Shown here in pieces: positions 3,108 to 62,340 of a stretch of DNA of 64,000 nucleotides. Each line of letters starts with the position of its first letter. Within the stretch, counting starts at the first letter, position 1. Made by a program: the position numbers and the translations under genes. The notes beneath the pieces were generated by a model. It saw nothing but the letters and a program-made list of their open reading frames with translations. It searched no databases and was not told the origin of the DNA. Source of the stretch: Torpedo marmorata (Eukaryota); assembly GCA_977017645.1 (NCBI GenBank), contig OZ360243.1, forward strand, positions 28,830,001-28,894,000. The letters run 5' to 3'.

Positions 3108-3888
3108 GTAAAGATTCATATGCTAATGCTGAAAATTCCAATCTTTTTAAGAGAGTGAAAGAATATGTAAAATGACCTTTCATTTGTGAAATTTTTACTG
3201 GCGTAAGTGAGGTTTGCTTTGTAACTGACCTTTTTAAATTGTGATCTTCCAAACCTAATGCTGGCGTGGACTTTACTCATGGAAATTATTGTCCTTTTTT
3301 GGGGGGGGGGGCAGTGAAAATGCTTTAAAGTCGATAAAGGGCTTGTGAATTTTACTATGAGTTTATCAGACTGAAGAACTTGAATTCTGTTGTGTTCTCT
3401 GAGGACACTTTAGTTGTCATTGAGGCTGACATAATAAAGACATTTTAAACTCAGTAAAACAAGTGCATTTAAGATTATGGTATGCAGCCAGTAACTATAT
3501 CCTGCCAAAATGGTGGTGGCTCTCCAATAAAATCTGCTTTATAAAGAACCACGTGTGAAGAACTGGGAATGGTTTCAGCAGTTCAGATGTTGTACGTGTG
3601 GTAGTTACTGCATGAGTGTATTTCTATGGCACTTTGATATTGACAGTTTATTAGTTTGGTGCTACTTGATTTGCTTGCATGCATCTTTTGAACAGCTGAC
3701 AGTAGTCAGCTAATCAGGCCTTCCTTGTAGCTGTATGCATGAAATTTAAACACGAGCTAGCAAAACTGTTACCTCAAGAAATTTTGATTTGGTCTTTTGC
3801 TTTTGAGTGGACTCTGGCTTTGTGCATGAGTTCTAACAATGTAATGAAGACTTGTTCACTACTAAATCAAAGACTCTCTTGTGCTCAG

Positions 3889-4077
3889 ACTTTTCGTCCA
3901 GCTGCTATGATGATTGAGCGGTCTTCAGACTTTGGAAAGAACTGGCAGGTGTACAGGTATTACGCTTATGACTGTGAGACGTCCTTTCCAGGCATTTCAG
4001 CAGGATCACTAAAGAAAGTGGACGACATTATCTGCGATTCTCGGTATTCTGATATTGAACCTTCAACAGAAGGAGAG
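3889..4077 (+). CDS. LAMB1: LAMB1 exon (LN domain)
   Basis: gctcag|...GAG|gtatgt; 189 nt; [35 protein letters not shown]...[14 protein letters not shown]. Confidence 0.95.
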
Positions 4078-4278
4078 GTATGTGAAAAATGCTTATTTAT
4101 TTCTGTGGCAAAATGATGTGGACAAATCTAAGGAATGTTACATTGCATTGCATTCAAAGTATTTAAATCCAACACTTTGTCCATGGATGTAATTTGTAAA
4201 TTAAACAAGCATGCATGATCTGCACATATTGTCATTTATATTATCATTTAAAAAAAAACTCTCCTTGTTTGCCTTTAG

Positions 4279-4342: not shown

Positions 4343-6179
4343 GTAATTTTTCTATATGGGTTATGATTTCCTTTTGCTGCCTCTACTAATCTGTCTGTAC
4401 TAAATATTTTCCCTCATTGTTTTTCTGATTCTTTCTGTGTTGACACTGTACAACTGCTCCAATGGATTTTTATTGCATGTACTTTCCCATGCAGCATGAA
4501 TGCTTCCTGTTGACTAAGATTTGTTTGCTGTCAAGTGTCAAATCTTTTTTCGTGATGTAATTTTTGGCTGAGGATTGGAAAATGTAGACATTTAAAAGAA
4601 AGCTCAACTTCCAGCCATTGTTCAAGATTGTCTGTTACTTTTATATTCCTGCCGAAGTAACAGTTCAGCTGAAATATAAAAGTAACAGACTTGTTCAGTT
4701 TAGTTGAAGGGAAGTGGTAATGAAGGGATTCGGGGGAACTTTTTCCTTCACCAACAAAACATCTCAATTAATTTTGACAAAATCTGAAATTTTGATGTCA
4801 CTTTAAAAACTAGCCATGGTTCCATCCAGATTTGCATTTAAGTTTACTCCGGCAAGTTTCCAATTGACAGCAGAACTTTTTTTTGGCCTGTATCATTGGA
4901 ATGGAACTGCAGTGTCTGCAGGAGAGCACTTTGGCTTCAATGAATTTAACTGCATTATCTTTAATTAATTGGAAAAAGATAGGACTGGACCACAAGTTAA
5001 AGTCCGAAGTTGGGGCAAGGCTACTTTTGACGCTATTAGGCAGAAACTTGTAAAGATTGATTGGGAGAGACTGTTTTGTAGGTAAAGTGATGTCTGGAAA
5101 GTGGGAAGCTTTTAAAAGAGAGAGAGAGGAAAAGATCAGGGAAAGTGTGTTCCTATTGGACTGAAGGGCAAGTTTAGTAAGGTCAGGGAACTGTGGATGA
5201 CCAGATATATTAAGGCTCTAGTCAAGAAAAAGGAGGCATATGTCAGTTATAGATGGTTGAAATCAAATGAATCCTTTGAGTAGCATAGCGGATGTAGGAA
5301 ATTGTTTGAGGGAAATAAGGAGGACAAAGAGGTTCTGTCAGATAAAGTTAAGGAAATTTCTAAGAGAAAGTAGGCTGGTCTGGAAGGTTAGATTGCATAG
5401 GGTGAACTGGCCAATTGGATACAGGATTAGCTTGATGGTAGTAGAGGGCTGTTATTCAGATTGGAGGCCTGTGACTTGTGTGTGACAGGGATTGGTGTTG
5501 CAGCCATTGTTGTCATCTATATTAACGACTTGGATGACAATGTAGTTGCATGGTTAGTAAGTTTATGGCATCAAAATTGGTGGTATAGTGGGCAGTGAAG
5601 AAGTTTACCTGAGATTGCAACAGGAATCGGGGAAGAAGGCCAAGAGATGGCAGATGGACTTTAACTCTGATAAGAGTGAGCTATTGCGCTTCAGTTGGTT
5701 AAACGAGGGCTGGACTTGCAAGATGAAGGGTAGGGCCCTGGAGAGTGTTGTGGAACAAAGAGACTTGGAGCTGAAGTTATGTAATTCCATGACAATGGCA
5801 ATGCAAATATCCAAGGTGGTGAAGGTGTTTGACACCCTTGGCTTCATTGGTCAAGGCATTGAGTACTGTGATGTTTCTTTTATTGTAATAATGAAACTTG
5901 GGTTCTTTTAAAACAACTAATCTTTATTAGCTATAGAACTCATTCATGACCGTGTGGAGGCATCCATCTTGAATCCAACCGAAGCTGCAACAAACTAGTC
6001 TCCGACTCCCTCTAGTGATCAGGAGGATCACTAGCACTCTTATCACTACATCCCCTTTCCTTGAGATGTTTTATCTAACAACATGACACACTAATACAGT
6101 ATTCATTTCAATTTAAAGTTCAACACAAATTTAAACACAACATCAGCAGCACAAACATTTAAGTGTGCAGTTCTTTTTC

Positions 6180-7143
6180 TTTTAGAGATTCAGCCTGTCA
6201 GGTGCTTTGATAACATGTGTGGACCTTCTTAACACAGGTGCTTGTGTCGGCTCTGCTGGTCCACTACTGTCCTGCTTGGCTGTTCAGTGTCTGTTGGTTT
6301 ATAATCTTTCTCCACTACCATGCCAACAAAAAGTGTATCACTGAGAGCAATTACTTATCGTGTGCACACTTTTACTTCTGTTTTGTTTCCCTTTGGAAAA
6401 ACATTGCTTTGCGTAGTGATTCTGCTCTTTGCACTTATTACAGACTTTTCCATAAGCTGGGCATTGTTTTGGTGCATGTTTAGTGCCACATCATTTACAA
6501 TTGAATGTCTCCGTCTTTTTGTTGTTTCCTATATCTCATTTTTTGTTTGTGTGTGTGTCCCAACACTGGCTACAGCTATGCCTTCGTTTTCACTGGCTTT
6601 TGCACTCTCACCAAACTTTTTCGCGTGCTGCAGAGCTAATTAACTGGCGTGGCATATCTTCACAGCTCCAGCTAAGGTAAGCTTTGTCTCTCGCAGCAAC
6701 CTCTCTCACTTTCTTATCAATAATCCCGAACACAATTTGATCACGGATCATTGAATCTTGCAGCGATCCAAAATTGCATGTTCTTGCTTTTAATTTCAAG
6801 TCCGTTTATATAAAAAAAAAGTATCAAAGCTCTCTCCCTGCAGCTGCGTGCGCAAGCGAAGCACGTACCTCTCGAACTTTTCATTTTTCTTTGGTGAACA
6901 GTGTTCATCAAACATCTCGATAACCTTGTCAAACTTGCCCTGGTCTTCTGCCTCGGCAAAAACAAATGTATTGAAAACCTCTAGTGCTTGAGGTCCCACC
7001 ATGGTAAGTAGCAGTGCAATCTTCCGAGCATCAGGTTTGCTGTCGAGTCCAATGGCTTGCAGGTACAGCATGAATCTTTGTTTGAAGAACCTCCAATTGT
7101 GGTCGACATTTCCAGTCCAATTTACAGCCTTTACACTTTCCAT
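6180..7143 (-). pseudogene. Frameshifted gag with CCHC-type knuckles, plus a short pol/integrase C-terminal tail
   Basis: MESVKAVNWTGNVDHNWRFFKQRF...KIALLL...GESFDTF / LKLKARTCNFG...IRDQIVFGI / CGTKH...CPAYGKVCNKCKKQNHYAKQC; tail RRSTHVIKAPDRLNL*. Confidence 0.85.
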
Positions 7144-7177
7144 TTCTCTGCTGCTATCGACTGATTCTAACTCTGCA

Positions 7178-7463
7178 CACTCCTGGTGTTTCTTCCACTC
7201 CTGGTGTTTCTTCCACTCCTGGTGTTTCTTCCACTCCTGGTGTTTCTTCCACTCCTGGTGTTTCTTCCACTCCTGGTGTTTCTTCCACTCCTGGTGTTTC
7301 TTCCACTCCTGGTGTTTCTTCCACTCCTGGTGTGCACACTCCTGGTGTTTCTTCCACTCCTGGTGTGCACACTCCTGGTGTTTCTTCCACTCCTGGTGTG
7401 CACACTCCTGGTGTTTCTTCCACTCCTGGTGTGCACACTCCTGGTGTTTCTTCCACTCCTGGT
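7178..7463. repeat. Perfect minisatellite built from PBS core (17x CACTCCTGGT; 18-bp and 33-bp units)
   Basis: (cactcctggtgtttcttc)x8, then (cactcctggtgtgca cactcctggtgtttcttc)x4, then the PBS copy itself; minus-strand frame reads (PGVEET/PGVCT)n. Confidence 0.95.
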
Positions 7464-7467
7464 ACCA
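7453..7467 (-). promoter_or_regulatory. Primer-binding site complementary to tRNA-Leu(UAA) 3' end
   Basis: TGGTACCAGGAGTGG directly after the 5' LTR; matches the recalled vertebrate tRNA-Leu-TAA end ...CCACTCCTGGTACCA. Confidence 0.8.
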
Positions 7468-7851
7468 TGTGATGTTTCTTTTATTGTAATAAAGAAACTT
7501 GGGTTCTTTTAAAACAACTATACTTTATTAGCTATAGAACTCATTCATGACTGTGTGGAGGCATCCATCTTGAATCCAAACGAAGCTGCAACAAGCAAGT
7601 CTCCGACTCCCTCTAATGGTCAGGAGGATCACTAGCACTTTCACAACAAGTACAGGAGCGGGGATGTCATGTTCCAAATGTACAAGACGTGGGTGGCGTA
7701 TTATGTGCCCTTTTGGTCACCCAGCTATAGGAAAGATATCATTAAGCTGGAAAGGGTGCAGAAGCAATTCAATTGCAATTCCCAATACTCTAATGAAGAC
7801 TGGTTGGCTGGAATTACGAGGAGGGGTTGAAGCGTAGGAAGCTAATGGGAG

Positions 7852-10793
7852 GGTAAAAGCACTGGAATGTTGGAGGAACTCAGCTGGTCTTTTCAGCATC
7901 TATAGGAGACAAAGATATATTGCCGACGTTTCGGGCCTGAGCCCTTCAAGGAAAAATCAGAAAAGGCAGAAGCAGGATATATCAGAAAGTCTCAGAATTC
8001 AAACAATGGGGGAGGAATCCAGACCAATAAAAGGTGTTAATTGGATGTGATAAGGGACTAGGTAGAATTTATCATGTCTGTGCGAAAGGAGACCGGGAAT
8101 GGAGAGACGACGGGGAAGAAGGGGGTGGGGTGGGTTTAACGAGAGCCAGAGAAGTCGATATTTATGCTATCCGGTTGGAGGGTGCCCAGTCGGAAGATGA
8201 GGTGTTGCTCCTCCAATTTACGGGTGGTCTCAGTCTGGCAGTACATGAGACCATGGACAGACATGTCGTCAAGGGAATGGGATGGAGAATTGAAATGGGT
8301 GGCCACTGCGAGATCCACGCTATTGCGGCGGACAGGGCCAAGGTGCTCAACAAAGCGATCTCCCAGTCTGCGTCCAGTCTCTCCGATATAGAGGAGACCA
8401 CAACAGGAGCACCGGATGCAGTAGATGACCCCTGCAGATTCACAAGTGAAATGTTGCTTCACTTGGAAGGACTGGGGCCCCAAATGGTGCTGAGGAAGGA
8501 GGTATGGGCACGTGGAGCATCTCCTGCGGTCACAGGGGTAGGTCCCAAGGGAACGATTGGTGGAGAGGGAGGAGTAGACAAGGGAGTCACGGAGGGAGCG
8601 GTCCCTGCGGAAGGTGGAGTGGGGAATATGTGTATAGTGGTGGGATCACGTAGTAGGTGGCGGAAATGGCGTAGGAGGATGTGTTGGATGCGGAGGCTGG
8701 TGGGGTGGTAGGTGAGGACAAGAGGAATCCTATCCTTGTTGCACGTGGGGACGGAGTGGGGCCAGGGAAGATGTACGGGTAATGGAGAATATGCGGGTGA
8801 GTGCCGAGTTGATGGTGGCAGAGGGAAAGCCACGTTGTTTGAAGGAGGACATCTCTGATGATCTGGCATGGAAGTCCTCATCCTGGGTGCAGGTGTGACG
8901 GAGACGGAGGAATTGAGAGAATGGAATGGAATCCTTACAGGGGACAGGGTGGGAAGAGGTGTAGTCGACGTAGCTGTGGGAGTTGGTGGGTTTATAGACG
9001 ATGTCTGTCGAGAGTTTGTCTCCTGAGATGGAGACAGGGAGATCGAGGAAAGGGAGAGTGTTGCTAGAGATGAACCAAGTGAATTTGAGGTCGGGGTGGA
9101 AGTTGGCAGCAAAGTGGATGAAGTCAACGATCTCATCATGGGTACATGAGGCAGCACCAAAGTAGTCATCGATGTAGCGGAGGAAGAGTTGAGGGGCCTT
9201 GCCTGTGTAGGCTTGTAGCATGGATTTCTCCACGTAGCCAACAAAAAGGCAGGCATAGCTGGGGCCCATGGGGGTACCCGTGGCTACCCCTTTAACCTGG
9301 AGAAAGTGCAATGTCAAAGGAGAAATTATTGAGAGTGAGGACAAGTTCTGCCAGCCAGAGGAGGGTGACTGTTGGTTCTATTGTCTAGAAAGAAACAAAG
9401 GGCTTTGAGGCCTTCAGTATGGGGAATGGAGGTGTATGGGAATTGGATATCCATGAGGCGATCGAGTTCAGGGAACTGGAAGTTGTTGAAGTGATGGAGG
9501 GCGTGTGAAGTGTCCTGGATGTAGGTGGGGAGGGACTGGACAAGGGGAGACAAAACAAAGTCAAGGTAATCGGAGACCAATTCGGTGGGGCAGGAGCACG
9601 CGGACACGATGGGTCTGCCGGGACAATTGGGTTTGTGGATCTTGGGTAGGAGGTAGAAATGGGCGGTACAGGGTTGGGAAACAATAAGGTTGGAGGCCGT
9701 GCCAGGGAGGTGACCGGAAGTGATGAGTTCAGAGATGGTGCATGATACAGTGGTTTGATGAGTTTTGGTGGGGTCCTGTCTGGCCAGATAGAGGTCAGTG
9801 CGCCAGACCACAACAGCACCACCCTTGTCTGCAGGTTTGATGGTGAGGTTTGGATTGGTGCGGAGAGAGTGGAGGGCCAGGTGTTCCGAGGGGGTGAGAT
9901 TGGAATGAGTGAGGGGAGTAGTGAAGTCGATACGGTTGATGTCACGGCGGCAGTTGGAAATATAAAGGTCCAGAGCAGGTAGAAGACGAGGTGTCCAGGA
10001 GGAGGAAGACGTTTTAAAGTGGGAGAAGGGATCTATAGTGGGGGGTGGAGAATCGTGGTTGTGGAAGGAAGCATGGAGACGGAGCCGATAGAAGAAAAAT
10101 TCAACATCATGGCGTGCGCAGAACTCGTTAAGGTGTGGACGAAGGAGGACAAAGATGAGGCCTCTACTGAGGACAGAGCATTCAGTCTCCGAGAGGGGAA
10201 GGTCAGAGGGGATGGTGAAGGCCAGGCAGGGGTTAGGGGGAGGTTCAATGGAGTGGAGGGTGTTGGGGAGGAGGATGGAGTGGATCGGGAGGTGGAGGGT
10301 AGGAAGGGTCCAAGTGAGGATGGGGAGGGTTGGGAAAGTCAGAGGGTGGAGAGAGAGAGGCCTGTGCCAGGGTGGGAGTTCGCGACGGAGGCTCGGTCCT
10401 GTAGCTCGCAGGGGCCAAGGTGGAAACCCGCGTCTGAAGCTCGGTTCTGTCGGTCGCCGAGTTCTGGGTGAAAGTTCATGTCGGAGTTTCGATCCTGTAG
10501 GTCGCCGGGGCCAAAACGGAGACCCGCGTGTGAAGCCAGGTCCTGTGGGCTGGCGGGTTCAGGGTGAAACTTCATGTCGGAGGCTTGATCCTGTAGGTCA
10601 CCAAGGCCAAGGTGGAGACCCGTGTCAGGAGCTCCGTCCTGTATGTCACCGGGGCTAAGGCAGAGACCCGTGTCAGGAGCTCGGTCCTGTAAACCGCCAG
10701 GGCCAAAGTGGAGACCCAGCTGGGGGGGTCCCCGAGGCGGCAGTCTCCAGGGACGCGAGCTTCCGATCCTTGATGGATGCCATGTGTGCGTAA
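7852..10793 (-). mobile_element. Penelope-like element (RT + GIY-YIG), long copy, frameshifted
   Basis: RT motifs FYLLPKIHKP..PGRPIVS, QVKGVATGTPMGPSYA, FLRYIDD; GIY-YIG VIYCIRCSCCGLLYIGETGR; 10-bp direct repeat CTAATGGGAG at 7842-7851 and 10794-10803. Confidence 0.9.
10365..10720 (-). repeat. Degenerate 48-bp tandem repeat (~7 copies) within the Penelope 5' coding region
   Basis: Recurring ccaaggtggagacccg.gtc.ggagctcggtcctgta; minus frame gives 16-aa repeats (PGDLQDR..D.G.HLG). Confidence 0.8.
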
Positions 10794-19034: not shown

Positions 19035-21135
19035 CAGGTAGTCCTCGACTTACGACCGTAATTGGGACCGAAGGATTGGTCGTAACTCGGATTGGTCATA
19101 AGTCGGATTCACCCTACCGCGCATGTCTTAACGAGGTCTTAAAGCAATTTTTCAAAAACATTTTCAACAAATGAACCTTTAATGAAGAATCTCAACATAT
19201 GTACAGTATTTTTAATACAAAATATGTACTGTACCTCTACTTGAACTTGATCCCATCACTGCACTTGTACTGGTACTTGGCTGTGGCTCCTCACAGTCTT
19301 CTTCATGGGTTGATGGGCAGGGGGTTGATGAAGGACATTTGAAGAACATGCCTAAATTCGTTTGCACCGTTTGTTTCTTTTTTCATCGTAAATTTGACGA
19401 TAACTTAAAGCATCCTGAATTTGACAATTAATCTTGGAAAATCTTTCAACATTCTGGTCCATGCTTTCAAACTCGGCAAGGGCCTTATTCATTTGTGAAA
19501 ATACATTGGACAACCCCTTAACGGTGAACCTCTTCTGTGGTTCCTCATCCTCTTTCTCTTCCTCTTTCCTCTTTTCCTCCTCCGCAATGCGTTCTTCTTC
19601 TAATTTGATTAAGTCCTCATTGGTCAATTCCTTTGATTCAAGATCTAATAACTCTTCCACATCTTCAACGTCGACTACCAATTCAAGATCCCTTGCGAGC
19701 GTCACAATGTTCTCTCTAATCTCGTCAAGTTACATCCTCCTCATTCAAGCTTGTGTGAACGTAGCGTTTGAGACATTTTTTCCAACTTCCATTCGTGCAT
19801 CTTCCTGTAACATTCTCCCGTGCTGCCGCGATGTTCTTGATGCAATTAAGAATGCTGTAACCTTTCCAAAAATCACGTAACAATGCTTGATCACTGTCGG
19901 TTGCTGCTATGGCCTGCGCAAATGTTGAGCGAACGTAATGAGCTTTAAAAGTCGCAATCGCCCTTTGGTCCATAAGCTGAATGATAGAAATTGTGTTTGG
20001 TGGCAGAAATATCACGTTAACATCGGGATTAAGGTCCGACAAATGAGGGGGATGTCCAGGCGCGTTATCTAAGATTAATAGAATCTTGAAAGTGAAACTA
20101 TTTTCTAAACAATATTGCCGAACATTTGGAATGAAACAGTTAGCAAACCAGTCTTCAAACAAGGCCCTAGTCATCCAGGCTTTGGGGTTGGATCTGTAGT
20201 GGACAGGCAGGGTGTGCTTGTTAATGTTTTTGAATGCACGTGGGTTCTCGGAGCGGTAAATCAGGAAAGGCTTCATCTTAAAACCAGCAACATTACCTCC
20301 CAGTAACATGGTCACTCGATCCTTAAATGCTTTAAATCCCGGCATCATGCAAGCTTCTTTATGGATGTACGTTCGTTATGGCATACTCTTCCAAAAAAGT
20401 TCCGTTTCATCCACATTGAAAATGTGCTCTGGTTGATAACCGCCATCACGGATTAACTCATCCAGACTTTCAGTGAACTTTTTGGCAGCTCCTTCATCAG
20501 TACTTGCTGCTTCACCTGAGACTCGTACGTTGTGCAAGCTGTACCTTCTTTTAAATCTACTAAACCAGCCATTACTTGCCATGAAGCTCCCAATGTACTC
20601 CTCTCCCGCTCGCTCCTTCAATGTCTCAAAAAGACTTCTAGCCTTCGTCTGAATCGTCCTTAAATTCAGTGGCATGCGTTTCTGAATCAGGTCTTCCAAC
20701 CGCACCATTAATAACTTCTCCATCTCGTGAATGGGCCCTTGCCATTGCTTAGTTAAAATTGTGCTCTTCAAACTTACAGATCCTCTTACAGCCTCACGTA
20801 TTCTCTCTTTATCCTTTAAAATCGTCGACACGGTGGAATGCGCCAACTGTAGACTGCGTGCAATATCATTGACCTTTCTACCTTGGTCATGTTGGTTAAT
20901 GGCTTTCATTTTTTACCTCCAAAGTTATGGTTTTCCTCAGTCTCTAGCAGCCCTATCAGCAAGGGATATATTTTTACTCTTGCCATGTTTCTAGCGCGCC
21001 TACAGAATGGCGACTACGCACATGGCCCTATATTGCGCTATGTTGCGCATGCGCAGGTGCGTATTTTTAAAAAGAAATTTGGTTGTAAGTGCGGGTGGAC
21101 GTAACTCGCGTAGGTCGGAAGTCGAGGACTACCTG
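19035..21135 (-). mobile_element. Tigger (pogo) DNA transposon, full-length, disrupted transposase
   Basis: 23-bp TIRs caggtagtcctcgacttacgacc / ggtcggaagtcgaggactacctg|TA; CENP-B HTH (FMASNGWFSRFKRR) and DDE motifs FNVDET, LILDNAPGH, QLMDQ; in-frame stops. Confidence 0.93.
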
Positions 21136-25009: not shown

Positions 25010-25690
25010 TAAGAACTAGTCAGTCAGCCCCGTGACCCTCAGCCCCATTAGTAAGTTAATGGCAGATAGTAACCTCAATCCCACATTTCTGCCCTCACCC
25101 ATTGACCTTTCTTGTCTGAGTGTCTATCTACTTATGCCTTAAAAATATTCAGACTGTTTCCACATTGTTTTGATGAGGATTTCAGGTTCTCATGACCTTC
25201 AGAAAATTTTGCTTCAGTTATCTTAAATGTGTGACCTTATTTTTAAATGGCAATGCATTGTTCTAGATTCTCGTAAAGAGGAACTTCTTCATTTCCTCCT
25301 GGAGAAGTCTACTCAATCCTGCATATAACAATCCATAAGCCTATCACTCTTTAGAATTTCAGCTTATAAGAAGTCTAACCTATCAAACCTTCTGTCACAA
25401 GGCAAGCTGCTCATCCCAAGTATATTCAGTGACCTCCGCTGAACACTATCGGTAAGGAGACCAGCACCATGCACTACTCCAGATGCAGTCTCATTGTTAC
25501 CAGACATAATTGAAGCATAACCTCCGTTTTTATTTTGTACACTTCACGATAAGTTAAATAATTCTGTTGGCTTTCCTAATTACTTGCTGAAGATGCACAC
25601 CAGTTTCTTAAAAATCATGCACCAGGGCACTCAGATCTCTTTGCATCTCAGAGATCAGCACCCTCTCGCCAATTTTAAAAAAATATTTCT
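25010..25690 (-). mobile_element. Degenerate CR1 LINE fragment
   Basis: Reverse-complement CR1 3' phrases (ttgttctagattc, actactccagatgcagtctca, ggctttcctaattacttgctg). Confidence 0.6.
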
Positions 25691-25756
25691 GCAAAGGTCA
25701 ATGATTTCATGTTTTCTTACCAACTATCAATCTATTTATTTATTTATTTTTTGCAG

Positions 25757-25940
25757 CTCTTACTCATGCCTTACTGCAGGTCACTAGAAATATTCTCTTC
25801 AGGAGACTCGAGCATGTGGGATACCTTCCAGCGATACCGTTGCTTGGAGAACAGTCAGAGCGTTACCAAAACTCTAATGACTGATGTCTGTAGAGGCATT
25901 CTGTCCAGTATTTCTTCAGTAATCCATGAAGGAGCTCTAC
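25757..25940 (+). CDS. LAMB1: LAMB1 exon (domain IV end)
   Basis: ttgcag|...C|gtaagc; LLLMPYCRSLEIFSSGDSSMWDTFQRYRCLENSQSVTKTLMTDVCR. Confidence 0.94.
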
Positions 25941-26804
25941 GTAAGCCCATTTTAAACTGCTTTTATGAGGGAAATGGTGGACTTCTAGTGTAAATGGAAG
26001 ATCATCCAAAGTGGTGGGTGCTGTGGGAAATAGCCTTGCAATTATACTGATGTCAGTATGATTACATTGCAACTGGAGCTTTGGATGAAGTTTGAGTCAC
26101 CATTATAGAAGGGATGTTTAAACATTGAAAAATAACACTAACATTATAGTTTATGTCAAGCTCCAAGAAATACATGGCATGGTGTAATTAAGACTTCGAC
26201 GTTGTTTAAAGATTTAGGAGTGCAAATAGTCAATTGTGTATTTCAGCTGGTCACTAAATTTGTAACCAGAGGATTGTTATGGTACAATACTGAAGCTGAA
26301 AGGGGAAGTCCAGACCACTTTTCAAAGGCTTACTAAGTTATGAACTGCATCACTCCAGATTGTTCGTCAGTCCTCATGCAATGAAGGAAATTAGAATGAG
26401 CAATTGAAGACGGAAGTTTAAGGTGGGCAGACAGGTCTTCTTGCTGACAAATCCATGATTCTTCAACACCTCTCGCAAATCCTCGGTGTTAAAAGTGGTT
26501 TTTTTGCAGCAGATTTTTATTCTGTATTGATAGTTTTTGGTTCTATTTTTCATTAAAAATTAATGATGTGAAGGGCTAAGCTGATTTTTATAAAGATATT
26601 TTGAGCATGACCTTGCTGGTTTTGTTTCACTTCATAAAATGAAAATTGTCAATGATTTGTGTACTTAACAAGAAGTCAAACATGCGTTGAGGACATAGCC
26701 TGTTGCCTGCCATTGTTAATGAATATCAGTATTCATTGAAAGAGCACACTAAAAGTTATGGGTCATGACTCGAGGAATACTTTGAGGTGGCATGTAAGGG
26801 CTTT

Positions 26805-35749: not shown

Positions 35750-35783
35750 AATAACAAGTGTGCATCTGTGATTTAATTATTAG

Positions 35784-35998
35784 TGTGTGTCTGCAATAAC
35801 TTGGGTACGATACAGGCCCAGTGCCCTTCTGATGAATGCCATTGTAATCAAACCACTGGTCAGTGTCCTTGCCTTTCCAATGTGGTTGGTCTAACATGTG
35901 ATCACTGTGCGCCCAATACCTGGAAGCTAGCAAGTGGAACAGGTTGTGAACTCTGTAATTGTAATGAAGTCCACTCGCGTGCTGCATCTTGTAATGAG
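35784..35998 (+). CDS. LAMB1: LAMB1 exon (LE repeats)
   Basis: tattag|...GAG|gtgaga; 215 nt; [35 protein letters not shown]...[14 protein letters not shown]. Confidence 0.94.
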
Positions 35999-36471
35999 GT
36001 GAGAACATTTCTGTTTAAAGAAACTTCTCTCTTTAGATCTAAATCAAACACAATAGAGCACAAGAAGTAAAAGTGCACTTTGAACCTGCTTTTCTTGTCT
36101 GTTAGCACATTTTTGCCTGCACCTCGTGACCTGCTATTTCTTGTAATGTCTAAAAATTTATTTAATGTTCGGCCTCCAAAGCTCTTAGAGAATTCAAAAG
36201 ATTTGTAACACATTCGGAGAAGAAATTCTTCATTTCATTAAATGACTGACAGCTTACTTGAATATGCAAAATAAAAGGTTTATATTTTTCAGTAGGATTA
36301 ACTCCAAAGAGTGTAGATACCATTTGACGTGTGCTTTGCTCTTAAACATTAGCCAAAACTTGAGGATTGGTGTCATTGTTTGGCCAGTTTACATTTTTGT
36401 GCTCCTTGACTGCAAATAAAAGTTAAATTAATGAATAACAATGGAATATGATAACTTTTATTTCCCCATAG

Positions 36472-45907: not shown

Positions 45908-47696
45908 CCATATATTTCAGCGTATAAGTTGACTCGCGGATAAGTCGACCGTCCTTTTACAGCCTCATTTTAATGGTTTTATTTTATATGGGGCGTATAA
46001 GTTGACCCCAAAAAATCGTGATGCCTGAGATGCTGGGCGTTGACCGGCGTATAGGTCGACCCACAACGATCGCGCTGATTGAGCTGCTGGGCGTTGGCTG
46101 GAGGTGATTGTTATCATGGAGGCTCCATTGAAACGACAAAAGTATGAGGCGAGCTTTAAATTAAAAGAGATAGAAATGGCCAAGAAAACCAACAACTGTG
46201 CTGCTGCAAGAAAATTTGATTTTTTAATGAGAAGTTGGTAAGAGATTGGAGGAAGAAAGAAGAGACTTTAAGAAAAATACCAAAAAGGCAATGTTCGATG
46301 AGAAGAGGAATCACTCGTTGGCCAGAGTTGGAAAATCATGTCGCAGCATGGGTACGTGAACAGAGGCAAGATTGCTACATAGTCACCCGAAATAAAATAA
46401 GAACATTTGCACTGAAGTGGGCAAAGTCGCACCCAGAACTCAGTAATGATTTTGAAGCTACAGTCGGCTGGTGCAACCGTTTCATGAACAGGAAAATTCT
46501 GGTATTACAACAAAAATTGCTCAGAAACCACCAAAAGATCTTGATCATAAAGTTGTAAGTTTTCACCAGTTTATTTTACGTAACCGGCAGAAACACAAGT
46601 TTGCATTGGCAAATATTGGAAACATGGACGAAACCCCCATGAATTTTGACATGATAGGCAATAGAACAGTGGAATGGAAAGGTGTGAAAACTGTGCAAAC
46701 GAGGAGTACAGGACATGAAAGGACCAGGTTTACCGTGGTGTTATCGTGCATGGCCGACAGGACAAAGTTAAGACCCATGGTAATCTTCAAACGCAAATTT
46801 AAACCTAAAATAAAATTCCCTGCGGGTATTTTGGTACATTTTCATGAAAAATAATGGATGGACTATGGATAGACAATGTGTGGAACAGGCGGCCAGGCAG
46901 TTACGCAAGGAACGGAGTTTGCTGGTCTGGGATATGTTTCGTAGCCACTTAACTGAGAAGACTAAAAGTAGATTGGCACAACATAATACTTACATGGCGT
47001 TATTCCGGGTGGTTTGAAGTTTATATTGCGACCCCTCGATGTCTGCTTGAACAAGCCATTCAAAGACCATGTGCGTGAAGAGTGGAATACATGGATGTTG
47101 AGTGCAGAAAAATTATTTACAAAAGGCGGGGCAATGCGTGCTGCATCGCTTGATGTGCTGTGTGACTTTGTGCTCAAGGCATGGGACAAAGTGAAAGTAA
47201 AGATTGTAATAAAATAGTTTAAAAAGTGCGGTATCTCTTGTGCAATTGATGGTACGGAAGATGATTTTTTGTGGGACACTTGACGACGAAGCTGAAGCCG
47301 CCTCATCAGATACAGACTGGGACCCGTATGATGACTGTCTAAACAGTGAGACCCCGGATGTGCTTGCCGAGATCTTTGCCTCAGACGATGATAGCGAAAG
47401 TGATTTTGAAGGGTTCTAAATGTGTTGTTTTCAATAAAAATGTCAGTGAAAATTTGTTGCAGTCGGGTTTTTTTTTTTGGTTTTTCAAGGGTCGACATAC
47501 GCCGAATCAGGTTTTCAAGGGTTGACTTATACGCTGAATCGGGTTTTCAAGGGTCGACTTATACGCCGAATCAGCGTGGAGCGATTTTTGAGCTGATTTT
47601 AAGGTCTCAAAAGTATATCTGACGTATAAGTCGACCCCTGTTTTTTGAGAGATTTTTGAGGGTTTCAAGACTCGGCTTATACGCCGAAATATATGG
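45908..47696 (+). mobile_element. pogo-superfamily transposon (Passer/POGK-like), full-length, frameshifted
   Basis: TA|ccatatatttcagcgtataag ... cttatacgccgaaatatatgg|TA; transposase 46116-47419: Brinker-like DBD (KRQKYEASFKL...NCAAARKF), CENP-B HTH (ATVGWCNRFM), IGNMDETP, RPLDVCLNKPFK; three 31-bp subterminal repeats ~47478-47575. Confidence 0.9.
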
Positions 47697-49980: not shown

Positions 49981-51234
49981 AGATCTTGTAAATTTTGCCA
50001 TCACTAGCAAAGCCTTTGGTTAACTAAGGAAAAGTAAATTTGAAAATCAAGACCTTGAACCTGGCACAAAACCAATGGTGATTTCTGTCCCCCCCCCCCC
50101 GATGCTTTTTGAGAGCAGTGCTACCTCTAGTAGGCACATTATGGTACTGGAAGGATATCTCCAAATTTGGAAAATGAACAAACCGATTATCACTTCCAGA
50201 CCTACATCCCACCACTGAAAATAAAAAAAAAACCCGCAAAAGCTGGAAATCGAAAACAAAAACAGAAAGTACTGGAATAAATCAGCAGATCAGGTCACAT
50301 GCGTGAGAAGGGAAATTGAGTTAGTATTTTGGGTTAGCGGCCCTTGTGAGTTCTGACTTTGTTTCTCTTCCCATGGATGCAGCCTGACCGGAGTATTTCT
50401 GGCATTTTGGTTGAGAGGCATGTGTTGTCAGCTTCCCCAGCAGGAGAGTCACAAATCTGATACCATTTGGGAAGAAATTACCAAGCAGACAGGAAAAGTA
50501 CCAAGGATGTTTCCATAGCTTCCCTAAAGAATGCAGGTTCCCACTGATTCCTGGGAATGCCCATTCAAAGTGGAAAATGAGCATTCAGGGTAGTATTGAG
50601 AACCTTGAGTCTACGTGTTGGGAACATGCAAAGCCCTGCATAATCAGTGGAAGGAGTACATTCAAAGTACTTACTCACCTGCTTTATCTCAAAGTATCTG
50701 TGATTTCCATGTTGGTCTCAACAGCCACCCCAGAGCCTACAAAACTAGTGGAAGAAAGTTGTCTTCGATCCCAGGGAACGGCTACAGCGAACAATAGCAA
50801 ATCTAAACATTGAAATTAAATTGAATGCTGTCGAAGTGAGATGTGATATTCAGAAGTTGTTCACTTAACACTAAATGAGGGTCAATGTGAACAGATTGCA
50901 AATTGTTGGGGGTGTTTCCCACACAACAGGGGCACGAGAGTCTCTCCACAAGTAGAGTTTCATGCCAGTGAAGACCGAATTCACATATCCTCAACAAAAG
51001 TGAAAATTGGTCTCAATCGCGTTCAATGCAGGGTGATTGTTGTGCAAACTCTACTTTTATTAATATGGAGACGTCTTTCAAACTGCTTTGAAAGGATGGC
51101 AGAGTCAGTAAACTTCACCACATTATAAAGAATTTGATTACAGAATAATCTGTTTTTCAAAAAACCTAAAGCTTGAATGGTTATGGAGCAAGGGTTGGAA
51201 AGTGGGATTACCGTATTTTTACATGTTGAAACAA

Positions 51235-51660
51235 CGCGCACAATTTATGGCGGGCCTGGGAAAGTCACACCGGCAATTTATAGTGAGCGTGGGAATAATA
51301 GCAGCAATGAAAGAACGCGCACAATTTATAGCGGGCGTGGGAATGTAATAGCAGCAATGAAAGAATGCGCACAATTTATAGCGGGCGTGGGAATGTAATA
51401 GCAGCAATGAAAGAATGCGCACAATTTATAGCGGGCGTGGGAAAGTTGCACCAGCAATTTATAGCGAGTGTGGGAATAATAAGCAGCAATGAAAGAACGC
51501 GTACAATTTATAGCGAGCGTGGGAATGTAATAGCGGCCATGAAAGAACGCGCACAATTTATGGCGGGCGTGGGAAAGTCGCACCGGCAATTTATAGCGAG
51601 CATGGAAATGTAATAGCGGCAATGAAAGAACACATACAATTTATAGCGAGCGTGGGAATT
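51235..51660. repeat. Composite minisatellite (10 copies of ~22-bp core, 33-bp and ~50-bp periods)
   Basis: Core CAATTTATAGCGRGCGTGGGAA separated by two recurring spacer types. Confidence 0.9.
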
Positions 51661-52138
51661 GGGTACATACAAAATGGCAAAATTCTAAATTTTAATCTTG
51701 GGAATATTTCTTTCGCCTGAGTGTTATGGTATTCCGAGAAACAGGATATTCTGGCTCGGGCACTGCACCTTATCAATGTTAATTGCCCAGACCCGTCCCC
51801 TGATGGAGGAGATTAACATATCAAGTGCCTCTGATCTGAGACAACATTAGGATGATTCTGCCCTATGGCATCAGTTTAATCATCCTCATTACATCAAATC
51901 AAACCATAAATCTCTCAATTGCACACTTTTTAACAAGATAAGGTTTCTTTTAAAGAAAGGTTTTTTTTAAATCATGATAAAATTAAAATCCTGCTTAACA
52001 CTGAAGCCTGTCTTCGATCTATTTAATTGATTCCTTTCCAAAGCTTGTTAATGTGTTGCAGGAGGATATCATCTATATAATGGGCTATTGACACCATTGG
52101 GGGAAGTTGAATGGGTGTAAATCGCGGGAGATTTACTG

Positions 52139-53088
52139 ATTATCAACATAGGCGCACCCCAAGGATGCTTGCTTAGTCCACTGCTCTACTCGTTATACAC
52201 CCATGACTGTGTGGCCAGGCACAATTCCAATGCCATCTACAAGTTTGCCGATGACACCACAGTTGTCGGCAGAATCACAAACGGCAATGAGGAAACGTAC
52301 AGGAGGGAGGTAGATCAGCTTGTTGAATGGTGTAATGACAACAACCTTGAGCTCAACGTCAGCAAAACCAAGGAGATGATTGTGGACTTCAGGAGGAAGT
52401 CAGGGGAACACCACCCAGTCCTCATCGAGGGCTCAGTCATGGAGAGGGTCAAGAACTTCAAATTCCTGGGTGTCAACATCTCCGAGGATCTGTCCTGGAG
52501 CATCTACATTTATGTAATCACAAAGAAGGCTCGTCAGCGGCTATACTTTGTGAGGTGTCTGCGGAGATTCGGTATGTCACCGAAGACTCTCGTAAACTTC
52601 TACAGGTGTACCGTGGAGAGCATTCTGGCTGGTTGCATCACTGCCTGGTATGGAGGCGCCAACTCTCAGGACAAGAGTAAACTCCAGAGGGTTGTTAACT
52701 CGGCCTGTGACAACACAGGCACCAAACTTCACTCCATCGAGGACATCTACATGAGGCGGTGTCTTAAAAAAGCAGCCTCTATCCTCAAAGACCCACACCA
52801 CCCAGGCCATGCCCTCTTCACTCTGCTTCCATCGGGAAAAAGGTACAGGAGCCTAAAGACGAGCACTTAACGGCACAAGGACAGCTTCTTCCCCGCTGCC
52901 ATCAGATTCCTGAATAATCAATGAACCAAAGACACTGCCTTACTTTTTGTGCACTATTGTTTATAATTTTTTTATAGTAATGTCGTAAGATGGTTAATAT
53001 GAATGTTAATTGCACTATGATGCTGCCGCAAACACCGAATTTCATGACTTGTTCATGACAATAAATTCTGATTCTGAATTCTGATTCT
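52139..53088 (+). mobile_element. Rex1/Babar LINE 3' fragment with open RT C-terminal ORF
   Basis: GAPQGCLLSPLLYSLYTHDC...YKFADDTTVVG; tail aataaattctgattctga repeats; candidate TSD GAGATTTACTG/GAGATTAACTG. Confidence 0.92.
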
Positions 53089-59888: not shown

Positions 59889-60515
59889 AAGAGAACTTAT
59901 TTACTGCATCCGGTGCTCCCTTTGTGGCTTTCTCTACATCGGAGAGACCGGTCGTAGATTGGGAGATCGCTTTGCTGAGCACCTCCTCTCCGTCCGCAAC
60001 AACAGCGACCTCCCAGTAGCCAACCATTTCAATTCCGAGTCACACTCCCACACTCACATGTCTGTCCATGGTCTTATGTACTCTCCCACCCAGACTACCC
60101 GCAAATTGGAGGAACAACATCTCATTTTCCGTCTGGGCACTCTCCAGCCAGATGGCATTAACATTGACTTTTCTGCTTTCCACTAAACCTGCTTGTCGTT
60201 TCCTTCCCCTCCCCTCTCACCTGACCTTCCTGTTTTTTTCCACCCACCCAGCCATCCCTCCTCCCCCTCTTTGTTGCTGTCCCCTCCCTCCTTTCTCCAC
60301 CTATCATCTCCTGCCTTTGCCACCCTTCCCCCCTCACTCTTTTGTTCGGACACCTGCCGGCATTTCCTCATACTTTGATGAAGGCCTCAAGCCCGAAACG
60401 TCGGTTATGTATTTCTACCTTTGATACATAAAAGACACTGTTTGACCTGCTGAGTTTCTCCAGCATTTGTGTTTTTTTTTACTTCAACCACGGTGTCTAC
60501 AGATTTTCGTGTTTT
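59889..60515 (+). mobile_element. Penelope-like 3' fragment, same family as 38190-39180
   Basis: LIYCIRCSLCGFLYIGETGRRLGDRFAEHL...LQPDGINIDFS; hammerhead-like motif 60369-60409. Confidence 0.9.
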
Positions 60516-62340
60516 ATTATATGATGGATGTGTTCTCCAAAATGGGCTTTGGGGATGGAATCCGGAATTGGATTAAATTGCTCTACACAGACATCTGTAG
60601 TGCAGACCAAATCTATGGGTGGGAAACAGATAGCTTCCCTATCAAGTCTGGATTTAGGCAGGGCTGCCCTCTGTCTCCAGTCTTATTTGTGTGCTGCATA
60701 GAGTCCTTTGCTGAATCCATCAGGAAGGATGAGGACATAAGGGGAGTGACTTTGCCAGGCAGCGGAGGCGCTCAGGTCAAGGCCTCCCTGTGTATGGACG
60801 ACGTCACTGTCTTCTGTTTGGATGCACAATCAGTCTGGAGACTGACCAGCATATGCGAGCAATTTGAGTCCGCATCAGGTGCTAGGGTTAACCAGAAGAA
60901 GATCTGACTACCTGAAGGTGCTGGGGATCTGGTTTGGAGGGGCTGAGGCGTGCAACAAAAATTGGAGCGGATCGCCAAGGTCCACCAAAAATTGGGACTA
61001 TGGGGGCGGTGCTCCCTCTCGATAACAGGGAAGAACTTGGTCATCCAGTGTGAGGTGCTCTCGTTGCTGCTGTACTTGGCGCAGGTGTAGCCCATCTCCC
61101 TCACCTCCACCCTGGCAGTCACCTGGGCAGTTTTCAGATTCATTTGGGGTTCCAAAATGGATAGGGTCCAATGGAGCGCCATGTACAAGTCACCAGAAAA
61201 TGGTGGCAAGGGCGTACCCAACGTGGCCCTCATCCTGATGACCACCTTCGTGTGTGGCTGCATCAAGCTGTGCATGGAACCAAAGTATGAGGGCACCAAG
61301 TGCCGCTTCGTGCTGAGGTTCTACCTGTCCCGGGTGTTGTGAATGATGGGCCTGGTCCTGTTATCGCGCAATGTCCCAGTTAGCTGGACTTTTCCGCACC
61401 ACCTATCCTTCGTGGAAAAGTTTTTCCAGGACAACACCTTTCACCACAATGCCATCAGGCAGTGGTCAGCATGGAACGTCCTGCAGAAACTAAGAGAGGA
61501 GGACTCTATGGATCCGGTGGGATGGTTCCCTGAGCAGACCGTCCAGGTCATCTGGCGGAATGCCTCATCGGCAGGGCTCACAAACGAGCACCAGGATTTG
61601 GTCTGGCTGGTGGTGAGAGGAGCCCTCCCAGTGTGATCCTCCTTGAACAACCGGAACATCACCCTCCACGCACGTTGTCCCCGAGATGACTGCGGTGGAG
61701 TGCAGACTGTCGCCCACCTCATTGCTGAATGTAGATTCGCAAAGAGTGTGTGGAGAGGGATGCAGGGGGCTTTGTCACGGTTCATCCCCAGCGGCAGCGT
61801 GACAGAGGACTCTCTGATCTACGTACTGTCCCCGGGGACACACTCTGAGTCCAACATCCAGAACTGCTGGAAGACCATCAACTCGGTGAAGGTCACCCTT
61901 TGGACAGCCCGAGACCTGTTGGTCTTTCAGCATACTGAGATATCAGTGAGGGAATGCTGCCGACTGGCACATTCCGTGCTACAGGAGTATGTGCTGAGGG
62001 ATGTGCTGAGGCTTGGTGTAGCCAACGTGAGGGCACTGTGGGGAAGGAGCACAGTTTAGAGTCCTCCCATTACCGGGCACTGAGGGGCTGACACTGAGGA
62101 AGCCCCTCAACCAACAGAGGTGGGGGAGGAACAACAAGGTGCCACAGGGGTGGTAACAAGAGTATTGAGAAGAATGTAAAATGTTCATTGACGAGATGAT
62201 TGACACTGTAAAAGGTTTTGAACAGTTTTTCCTGTATTGTAAATAATTTACCCGATATGAATGTTAAAGTCTTGAACAGTTTTTTTTCCTCCTGTATTGT
62301 ATATAATTTATTGCGAATAAAGTATATTTTTGGAAAAAAA
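60516..62340 (+). mobile_element. Tx1-clade LINE ORF2 (RT + Zn finger) and 3' end, disrupted
   Basis: KMGFG..IRNWIKLLY, GFRQGCPLSP, CMDDVTVF, GGKGVPN, CPRDDCGG..TVAHLIAEC; aataaa and A tail. Confidence 0.9.

What the first reader, a model, noticed from the sequence alone, without database searches (positions are those of the whole stretch)
7154..7468. 17-fold reiterated tRNA-Leu primer-binding-site core in the leader of a Gag-only LTR element
Seen: the tandem array is not a random minisatellite. Every unit carries ACCAGGAGTG (minus strand), the core of the element's own PBS TGGTACCAGGAGTGG, separated by only two spacer types (GAAGAAAC or TGCAC). It fills most of the LTR-to-gag leader. Both units (18 and 33 nt) are multiples of 3, giving a 104-aa uORF (PGVEET/PGVCT)n that starts at the LTR/PBS junction and stops 10 nt before the gag ATG. 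Known: the PBS matches the tRNA-Leu(UAA) 3' end, and 3' tRNA fragments are known to target LTR-element PBSs. Inference: the array could be a multi-tRNA docking or decoy platform. However, the repeats are perfectly identical while the LTRs differ by about 5-6%, which points to a post-insertion VNTR expansion. Only the first copy retains the TGG that pairs with CCA.
Basis: partly seen in the sequence, partly recalled or inferred. Interest (0 to 1): 0.7.

Follow-up and report, generated by a model that had tools for sequence, protein, structure and literature searches.

The report
Primer-site minisatellite in a dead retrotransposon
A broken jumping gene carries 17 tandem pieces of the site that pairs with a leucine tRNA; its relatives mostly carry one to six such pieces, and this long run likely grew by ordinary repeat expansion after the gene had inserted, not as a tRNA decoy.

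Summary
The array is real: 17 cores of the primer-binding site (PBS), 12 spacers of one kind and 4 of another. tRNA-Leu(UAA) is the primer: relatives carry 18-50-nt copies of it behind the LTR. The element is not a Gag-only type but a broken copy of a large Ty3/Gypsy family (3038 exact LTR/PBS junctions) with an apparently private deletion. Reiteration is a family trait: 66 of 98 sampled copies have 2 or more cores, only 1 of 98 has 7 or more, and a five-core leader was inherited through a clade. The 17-mer is younger than the insertion: no substitution where about 8 are expected, and a locus-private letter in all four short units. Inner units lack the CCA-pairing TGG and bind 8-12 kcal/mol more weakly; the uORF is a by-product. 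Verdict: a PBS-seeded minisatellite; decoy or docking role unsupported, not excluded for the short inherited leaders. The scan noted stacked primer sites before in two other genomes. Raw reads could not be checked.

The parts
7468..7648 (-). 5' LTR, 181 nt, TG...CA
7453..7467 (-). Primer-binding site, 15 nt complementary to the 3' end (with CCA) of tRNA-Leu(UAA); the only complete copy
7178..7463 (-). Tandem array: 17 PBS cores, 12 A spacers (G plus the last-but-six AAGAAAC of the LTR end), 4 B spacers with a locus-private C; no substitution in 286 nt
7154..7468 (-). 104-aa repetitive ORF; by-product of CA|TGG junction and stop-free units
7144..7177 (-). Unique leader tail shared with the family
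6274..7143 (-). gag (to the zinc-knuckle region and start of pro), broken: first stop at 6796-6798 after a T-run, further stops and frameshifts behind it
6271..6274 (-). Junction of the internal deletion that removed pro-RT-RNase H-integrase (about 2.9 kb relative to L083); not seen in any other of 40 scored candidates
6051..6271 (-). 3' end of the internal region with polypurine tract at 6062-6051
5867..6050 (-). 3' LTR, 184 nt
7649..7653 (-). Target-site duplication GTACT, 5' copy
5862..5866 (-). Target-site duplication GTACT, 3' copy
3880..4095 (+). Laminin N-terminal domain match; with matches at 25679-25990 and 35777-36067 it places the element, antisense, likely in an intron of a laminin beta-type gene
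   Evidence: gene structure inferred

Best explanation
The array is a minisatellite built from pieces of the tRNA-Leu primer-binding site of a broken Ty3/Gypsy retrotransposon copy, and it likely grew from the family's usual short run of units to 17 by slippage or unequal exchange in the chromosome after insertion, with no predicted job. Step 1 (shown): the family primes on tRNA-Leu(UAA) at the first PBS. Step 2 (shown as sequence, mechanism inferred): the LTR-end/PBS junction was duplicated during the family's replication and eroded, giving inherited leaders of 1-6 units; spacer A equals part of the LTR end, and 28-, 21-, 19- and 18-nt forms all survive. Step 3 (shown): such leaders were passed on by retrotransposition. 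Step 4 (inferred from dating): in a few inserted copies the short run seeded local expansion; here an A-B-A-type leader likely took one T-to-C change in unit B, then A+B was multiplied four times and A eight times.
For: No substitution in 286 nt where 7.9 are expected from the LTR pair (P 4e-4; 0.02 at the lower bound); 41 of 91 A units in short leaders are perfect against 12 of 12 here (P about 7e-5); terminal branch 0.029 agrees with the LTR date. B spacer TGCAT: 79 matches at 74 loci; TGCAC: 5 matches, 4 here and 1 in L124, which sits in another starred group of the tree. Other long arrays also carry rare variants in adjacent units (L190, L215, L062, L064, L238) and are scattered tips, never sisters. 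Ten loci with 7 or more cores found against 3038 junctions. gag is broken and pol deleted. First PBS overwritten to the 18-19-nt tRNA complement in register in 9 of 30 examined copies; inner complete PBS overwritten 1 time against 333 not (about 6 expected, P 0.017).
Against: No raw reads or second individual: neither the unit number nor length polymorphism was seen. The census of long arrays rests on exact patterns and is a lower bound. The tree's bootstrap had not settled and the part that holds the window copy is star-like, so its parent leader type is inferred. One copy (L268) has an inner complete PBS with the full 18-nt tRNA match, so inner sites can be used or copied. Multi-core leaders dominate the family (66 of 98), which a purely neutral view must put down to drift of subfamilies. 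The 11-nt cores pair with positions 4-14 of an 18-nt tRF, the geometry of a centred site.
Confidence: 0.85

Rival explanations
1. The 17-mer arose in the single round of reverse transcription that made this copy, by repeated slippage of reverse transcriptase at the PBS.
For: The PBS region is where plus-strand transfer happens and the family shows many aberrant products there (L077, L079, L080, L268); HIV-1 gives multiple-PBS variants during replication (PMC1084362, passages).
Against: An array as old as the insertion should hold about 8 substitutions and holds none; gag and LTRs did accumulate private changes.
Confidence: 0.05
2. The array is a working multi-tRNA dock or a sponge for Leu 3' tRNA fragments.
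For: 12 of 17 cores pair 11 nt (one of them 15) with the tRNA 3' end, at positions 4-14 of the 18-nt fragment; centred sites of 11-12 pairs are described (PMC3754971, passages); repression by 3'-tRFs can be seed-independent (10.64898/2026.01.22.698655, passages).
Against: Inner units cannot pair the CCA end and give -19.0 to -22.8 against -31.2 kcal/mol for PBS 1; the copy is dead; the surrounding laminin-type gene is read from the other strand, which would carry the non-pairing strand; long arrays were not passed on to daughter copies.
Confidence: 0.04
3. The unit number is inflated by an assembly error.
For: Perfect repeats; no read evidence obtained.
Against: The array is only 286 nt, has an ordered two-block structure and a private variant in four alternating units; nine other loci hold differently built arrays of 7-13 cores.
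Confidence: 0.04
4. The array encodes a functional repetitive peptide or a regulatory uORF for gag.
For: A 104-codon ORF starts at the junction and ends 10 nt before gag.
Against: All three frames are open over the array; no Pfam match reaches its cut-off; frame and length are not kept in the family; gag is broken.
Confidence: 0.02

Closest known systems
Minisatellites born inside transposable elements (e.g. mouse Ms6-hm in a MaLR LTR, Ogre-associated minisatellites; review PMC6947457, passages)
   Same: A short duplication in an element, made between short flanking repeats, seeds later tandem expansion; many dispersed loci share the unit.
   Different: Here the seed unit is the PBS core plus a remnant of the LTR end; I saw no PBS-derived example in the passages read.
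HIV-1 MAL-type 23-nt insertion behind the PBS (PMC3185550, passage) and multiple-PBS HIV-1 variants (PMC1084362, abstract and passages)
   Same: Partial duplication of the PBS directly downstream of it, inherited by a lineage of replicating genomes.
   Different: One extra partial copy in HIV-1; here 1-5 extra units in two thirds of a family and chromosomal expansion to 7-17.
Mag-lineage Ty3/Gypsy elements of Culex (PMC3286476, passages and Table 1)
   Same: LTRs of about 120-300 nt, 5-bp TSD, Leu or Ser PBS, about 4.5-5 kb; three families carry tandem repeats in the 5' UTR.
   Different: Those repeats are not described as PBS-derived in the passages read; placement of this family in Mag was not tested by a tree.
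Two-site tRNA binding of Drosophila Gypsy (PMC1635307, abstract); bipartite PBS of Ty1/Ty3 (recalled)
   Same: More than one tRNA-complementary site per genome; only the 5' PBS is needed for cDNA synthesis in Gypsy.
   Different: Those sites lie at opposite genome ends or pair other parts of the tRNA; here the same 10-11 nt are repeated head to tail.
Delayed second-strand transfer with tRNA read-through in HIV-1 proviruses (PMC12657518, passages; 18-nt stop, PMC8599865, passages)
   Same: Family copies L077, L079, L080 carry 29-50 nt of copied tRNA behind the LTR and then jump.
   Different: Seen here in germ-line copies of a retrotransposon; a side observation, not the array.

Membership tests
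Ty3/Gypsy LTR retrotransposon | TG...CA LTR pair, TSD, PBS, PPT | tested here: met
Ty3/Gypsy LTR retrotransposon | pol order protease-RT-RNase H-integrase | tested here: met
   in relatives L083, L084, L087; deleted in the window copy
Ty3/Gypsy LTR retrotransposon | RT closest to Ty3-type enzymes | tested here: met
   best PDB matches 4ol8 (E 2e-35) and 7q5b Ty3-G Gag-Pol (E 1e-34), retroviral RTs E 1e-17 or weaker
Mag lineage | short LTR, 5-bp TSD, Leu/Ser PBS, about 4.5 kb | tested here: met
   against Table 1 of PMC3286476
Mag lineage | RT/RH/INT phylogeny groups with Mag references | not tested
Amplified Gag-only non-autonomous subfamily (TR-GAG-like, name recalled) | the same internal deletion shared by many copies | tested here: not met
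   only the window spans the junction among 40 scored of 2058 candidates
TE-derived minisatellite (VNTR) | tandem units of 10-60 nt derived from element sequence | tested here: met
TE-derived minisatellite (VNTR) | turnover after insertion (homogeneity, private variants spread over adjacent units) | tested here: met
TE-derived minisatellite (VNTR) | length differs between individuals | not testable with these tools
   only short contigs of other runs
Multiple functional PBS | each copy pairs the tRNA CCA end | tested here: not met
   16 of 17 lack TGG
3'-tRF target or sponge | seed match (positions 2-8) | tested here: not met
   0 sites for the 18-nt and the 22-nt fragment
3'-tRF target or sponge | centred pairing of 11 or more nt | tested here: met
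   positions 4-14 of the 18-mer, 8-18 of the 22-mer
3'-tRF target or sponge | transcribed on the pairing strand and bound by the fragment | not testable with these tools
   no stranded RNA reads of this locus

The most novel reading that the evidence does not exclude
The inherited 2-6-unit leader is a selected part of this family's replication: the eroded inner PBS cores hold extra tRNA-Leu or soak up Leu 3' tRNA fragments next to the true PBS, without being able to misprime because they lost the CCA-pairing bases. The 17-mer would then be the runaway, post-insertion tail of an anti-tRF device that the scan has also met in other genomes. Hints: 66 of 98 copies are multi-core, the commonest units have lost exactly the LTR end and TGG, the cores form centred sites, and 3 or more cores are commoner in RT-keeping copies (16 of 21) than in RT-less ones (2 of 9; Fisher P 0.013, not corrected for kinship).
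Probability: 0.12. Interest if true: 0.65.

Novelty: new variant of a known kind. Interest (0 to 1): 0.3.

Why it matters
For this locus, little: a dead copy with an expanded repeat. For the family, it is a clear natural record of how the PBS is copied, duplicated and eroded (28, 21, 19 and 18-nt units, 18-nt overwrites, tRNA read-through), and of how a replication signal seeds thousands of latent minisatellites. It also offers natural 1-unit and 5-unit subfamilies in one genome, which makes the question of whether extra PBS cores buffer or attract tRNA fragments testable.

Tried and rejected
Public runs: 18 listed, all as contigs; no RNA holder listed. Contigs laid on 5600-7190 and 7405-7880 were short, none spanned a junction or could span the array, so they say nothing on unit number, age or expression; they do show the family, and one loose end with PBS plus spacer A in run X11. 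Pfam on the window's gag fragment and uORF: nothing at cut-off. ARAGORN on the window: no tRNA gene. Folding of the leader gave only weak repeat-on-repeat pairings, except an 11-pair stem at the palindrome GTGTGCACAC made by the private C; no shuffle control was run. The first core count used a matching mode that skipped units and was replaced; still counts a few copies with a degenerate second core as single (e.g. L157, L164, L185). Idea that long arrays go with non-autonomy: rejected, 8 RT-keeping and 5 RT-less among 13 determined of 22. Idea that inner complete PBSs yield elements ending in a PBS: 0 of 22 3' LTRs followed by a PBS, 1 of 98 junction LTRs preceded by a PPT (L172, a tandem arrangement). 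A genome-wide census with wildcards was not possible, so long arrays with other spacers may be missed. Ten paper searches showed no description of a PBS-derived tandem leader in a retrotransposon; one search returned 0 papers; the library lacks most subscription journals and repeat databases, and no supplements were read.

Full report
Observation. The minus strand holds 17 exact copies of ACCAGGAGTG between 7463 and 7178 and none elsewhere in the window; 12 are followed by GAAGAAAC (unit A, 18 nt), 4 by TGCAC (unit B, 15 nt), in the order ABABABAB, eight A, terminal core. The array lies between a 181-nt LTR (7648-7468) and a gag ATG (7143); a second LTR (6050-5867), a polypurine tract and the 5-bp duplication GTACT close the element. 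The LTRs differ at 10 of 181 sites plus 2 gaps. The 104-aa ORF is as described.

The element. The window lies in a 6.2-Gb genome in which the exact 25-nt LTR-end/PBS junction occurs 3038 times. Longer relatives carry protease, RT, RNase H and integrase in Ty3/Gypsy order, with RT closest to Ty3 among solved structures. LTR size, 5-bp TSD and Leu PBS fit the Mag lineage as tabulated for Culex (PMC3286476, passages), but I had no references for a tree. The window copy lacks about 2.9 kb relative to L083; only the window spans that junction among 40 scored of 2058 candidates, and its gag has a stop at 6796-6798 and more behind it. It is a dead deletion derivative, not a member of an amplified Gag-only type. 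It lies antisense between laminin-domain matches on the plus strand, likely in an intron.

The primer. A motif search gave 6 places; 3 are tRNA-Leu(UAA) genes. The other 3 are family LTR ends followed by 29-50 nt of exact tRNA copy, the pattern described for delayed second-strand transfer in HIV-1 (PMC12657518, passages). 123 copies have a first PBS matching 17 nt or more; in 9 of the 30 examined, a multi-core leader has its first PBS extended to the 18-19-nt tRNA complement in register with the rest, as expected from a plus-strand stop after 18 nt (PMC8599865, passages). An inner complete PBS shows this mark once against 333 times without, where about 6 would be expected at equal use (P 0.017, rough). 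So priming is on tRNA-Leu(UAA), mostly at the first site.

Reiteration is a family trait. The first 100 listed junction matches (all on contig C1) fall in 98 loci; cores per leader were 1 in 32, 2 in 13, 3 in 23, 4 in 6, 5 in 22, 6 in 1 and 12 in 1 (exact anchor, so biased to well-kept copies; a few degenerate cores missed). 19 of 98 have two complete PBSs and 4 have the whole LTR end plus PBS duplicated (28 nt). Spacer A repeats seven letters of the LTR end, and 28-, 21-, 19- and 18-nt forms coexist, so unit A likely descends from a duplicated junction that lost the LTR terminus and TGG. A tree on LTR plus gag without the leader (115 of 122 rows; 7 skipped for lack of an anchor; bootstrap not settled) has a 100/100 clade of 29 copies, 18 with five cores and 28 with two or more, and a 100/99 clade of 15 single-core copies. 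Short multi-core leaders were therefore replicated by retrotransposition. The closest published case I found is the 23-nt partial PBS duplication of HIV-1 MAL (PMC3185550, passage) and multiple-PBS variants (PMC1084362, abstract and passages). Two earlier notes of this scan describe stacked primer sites in other genomes; I took one paper lead from them and did not test their loci.

The 17-mer is local and late. Only 8 loci hold four or more cores in a perfect A run, ten loci with 7 or more cores were found (17, 13, 13, 12-13, 12, 9, 8, 8, 7, 7), a lower bound. Those in the tree are scattered tips. The window's array has no substitution in 286 nt where 7.9 are expected (P 4e-4, 0.02 at the lower bound), and 12 of 12 perfect A units against 41 of 91 in short leaders. 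The family's B spacer is TGCAT (79 matches, 74 loci); TGCAC occurs 5 times, 4 of them here, and the fifth copy is in another starred group. One change followed by local multiplication explains this best. L190, L215, L062, L064 and L238 show the same signature with other rare variants. This matches the route from a short duplication in an element to a minisatellite (PMC6947457, passages). LTR pairs of five other long-array copies are 93-97% identical, like ordinary copies.

Function. Inner cores pair 10-11 nt, none with the CCA end; duplex energies with the tRNA's last 18 nt are -19.0 to -22.8 against -31.2 kcal/mol for the first PBS, and there is no seed site. Against my reading: the 11-nt cores pair positions 4-14 of the 18-nt fragment, a centred-site geometry (PMC3754971, passages), and 3'-tRF repression can be seed-independent (10.64898/2026.01.22.698655, passages). 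Copies with 3 or more cores are commoner among RT-keeping (16 of 21) than RT-less copies (2 of 9) among 30 determined of 57, but kinship confounds this. So a role for the short inherited leaders is not excluded; for a dead, antisense copy whose array post-dates insertion it is unlikely. The uORF is incidental: all three frames are open over the array, its ATG is made by the LTR-final CA and the PBS TGG, and its frame to gag is not kept (20/28/46 of 94).

Limits. No raw or long reads, no second individual, no stranded RNA. Drosophila Gypsy's two tRNA sites were seen in the abstract only (PMC1635307). Ten searches found no description of a PBS-derived tandem leader in a retrotransposon, within a library that lacks most subscription journals; supplements were not read.

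Verdict. Observation confirmed; interpretation partly supported. A PBS-seeded minisatellite in a dead Ty3/Gypsy copy (confidence 0.85), on top of a family-wide inherited PBS reiteration that is a modest new variant of known phenomena. Interest 0.3.

Noticed in passing
L077 (G000:C43:20650135), L079 (C45:73958738), L080 (C47:90488161): Family LTR ends followed by 37, 50 and 29-31 nt of exact tRNA-Leu copy, then a jump (L077 into an inverted LTR end, L079 into the RT region). The L079 copy ends at gene position 37, where a modified G is expected (recalled).
   Followed up: partly
L085, L092, L257, L258, L260: An amplified subfamily of about 3 kb shares one deletion of the RT/RNase H region and keeps gag, pro and integrase; 17 of 20 determined copies with a TGCAT unit belong to it.
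   Followed up: partly
L261-L290: 123 copies have a 17-nt or longer PBS match; 13 of 30 examined are single-core copies with an 18-nt PBS.
   Followed up: partly
L268 (G000:C1:213527979): Both the first and an inner complete PBS carry the 18-nt tRNA complement, followed by a jump into sequence outside the leader; the only such case in the genome.
   Followed up: partly
L051, L057/L172: Tandem LTR-PBS-LTR arrangements: an LTR directly behind a leader (L051) and a PPT-preceded LTR followed by a PBS and gag (L172).
   Followed up: no
window 7337-7446 (B units) and 7460-7467: The private C makes a perfect 10-nt palindrome in each B unit, which might favour instability; the PBS itself begins with the 8-nt palindrome TGGTACCA.
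   Followed up: partly
window 3880-4095, 25679-25990, 35777-36067 (+): Laminin N, laminin IV-B and laminin EGF matches in the order of a laminin beta-type gene that spans the window.
   Followed up: no
window about 7900-10560 (-): A degenerate RT-like element with a YIDD motif and C-rich strand skew upstream of the LTR element, by eye Penelope-like; no Pfam match at E 1e-5.
   Followed up: no
window 10386-10717 and 51227-51659: Other tandem arrays with periods 48/96 and 50/82/132 nt.
   Followed up: no
window 19728-20912 (-), 46220-46555 (+), 52121-52867 (+), 60446-60904 (+): Tc5/pogo-type transposase remnants (DDE_1, HTH_Tnp_Tc5) and LINE RT remnants.
   Followed up: no
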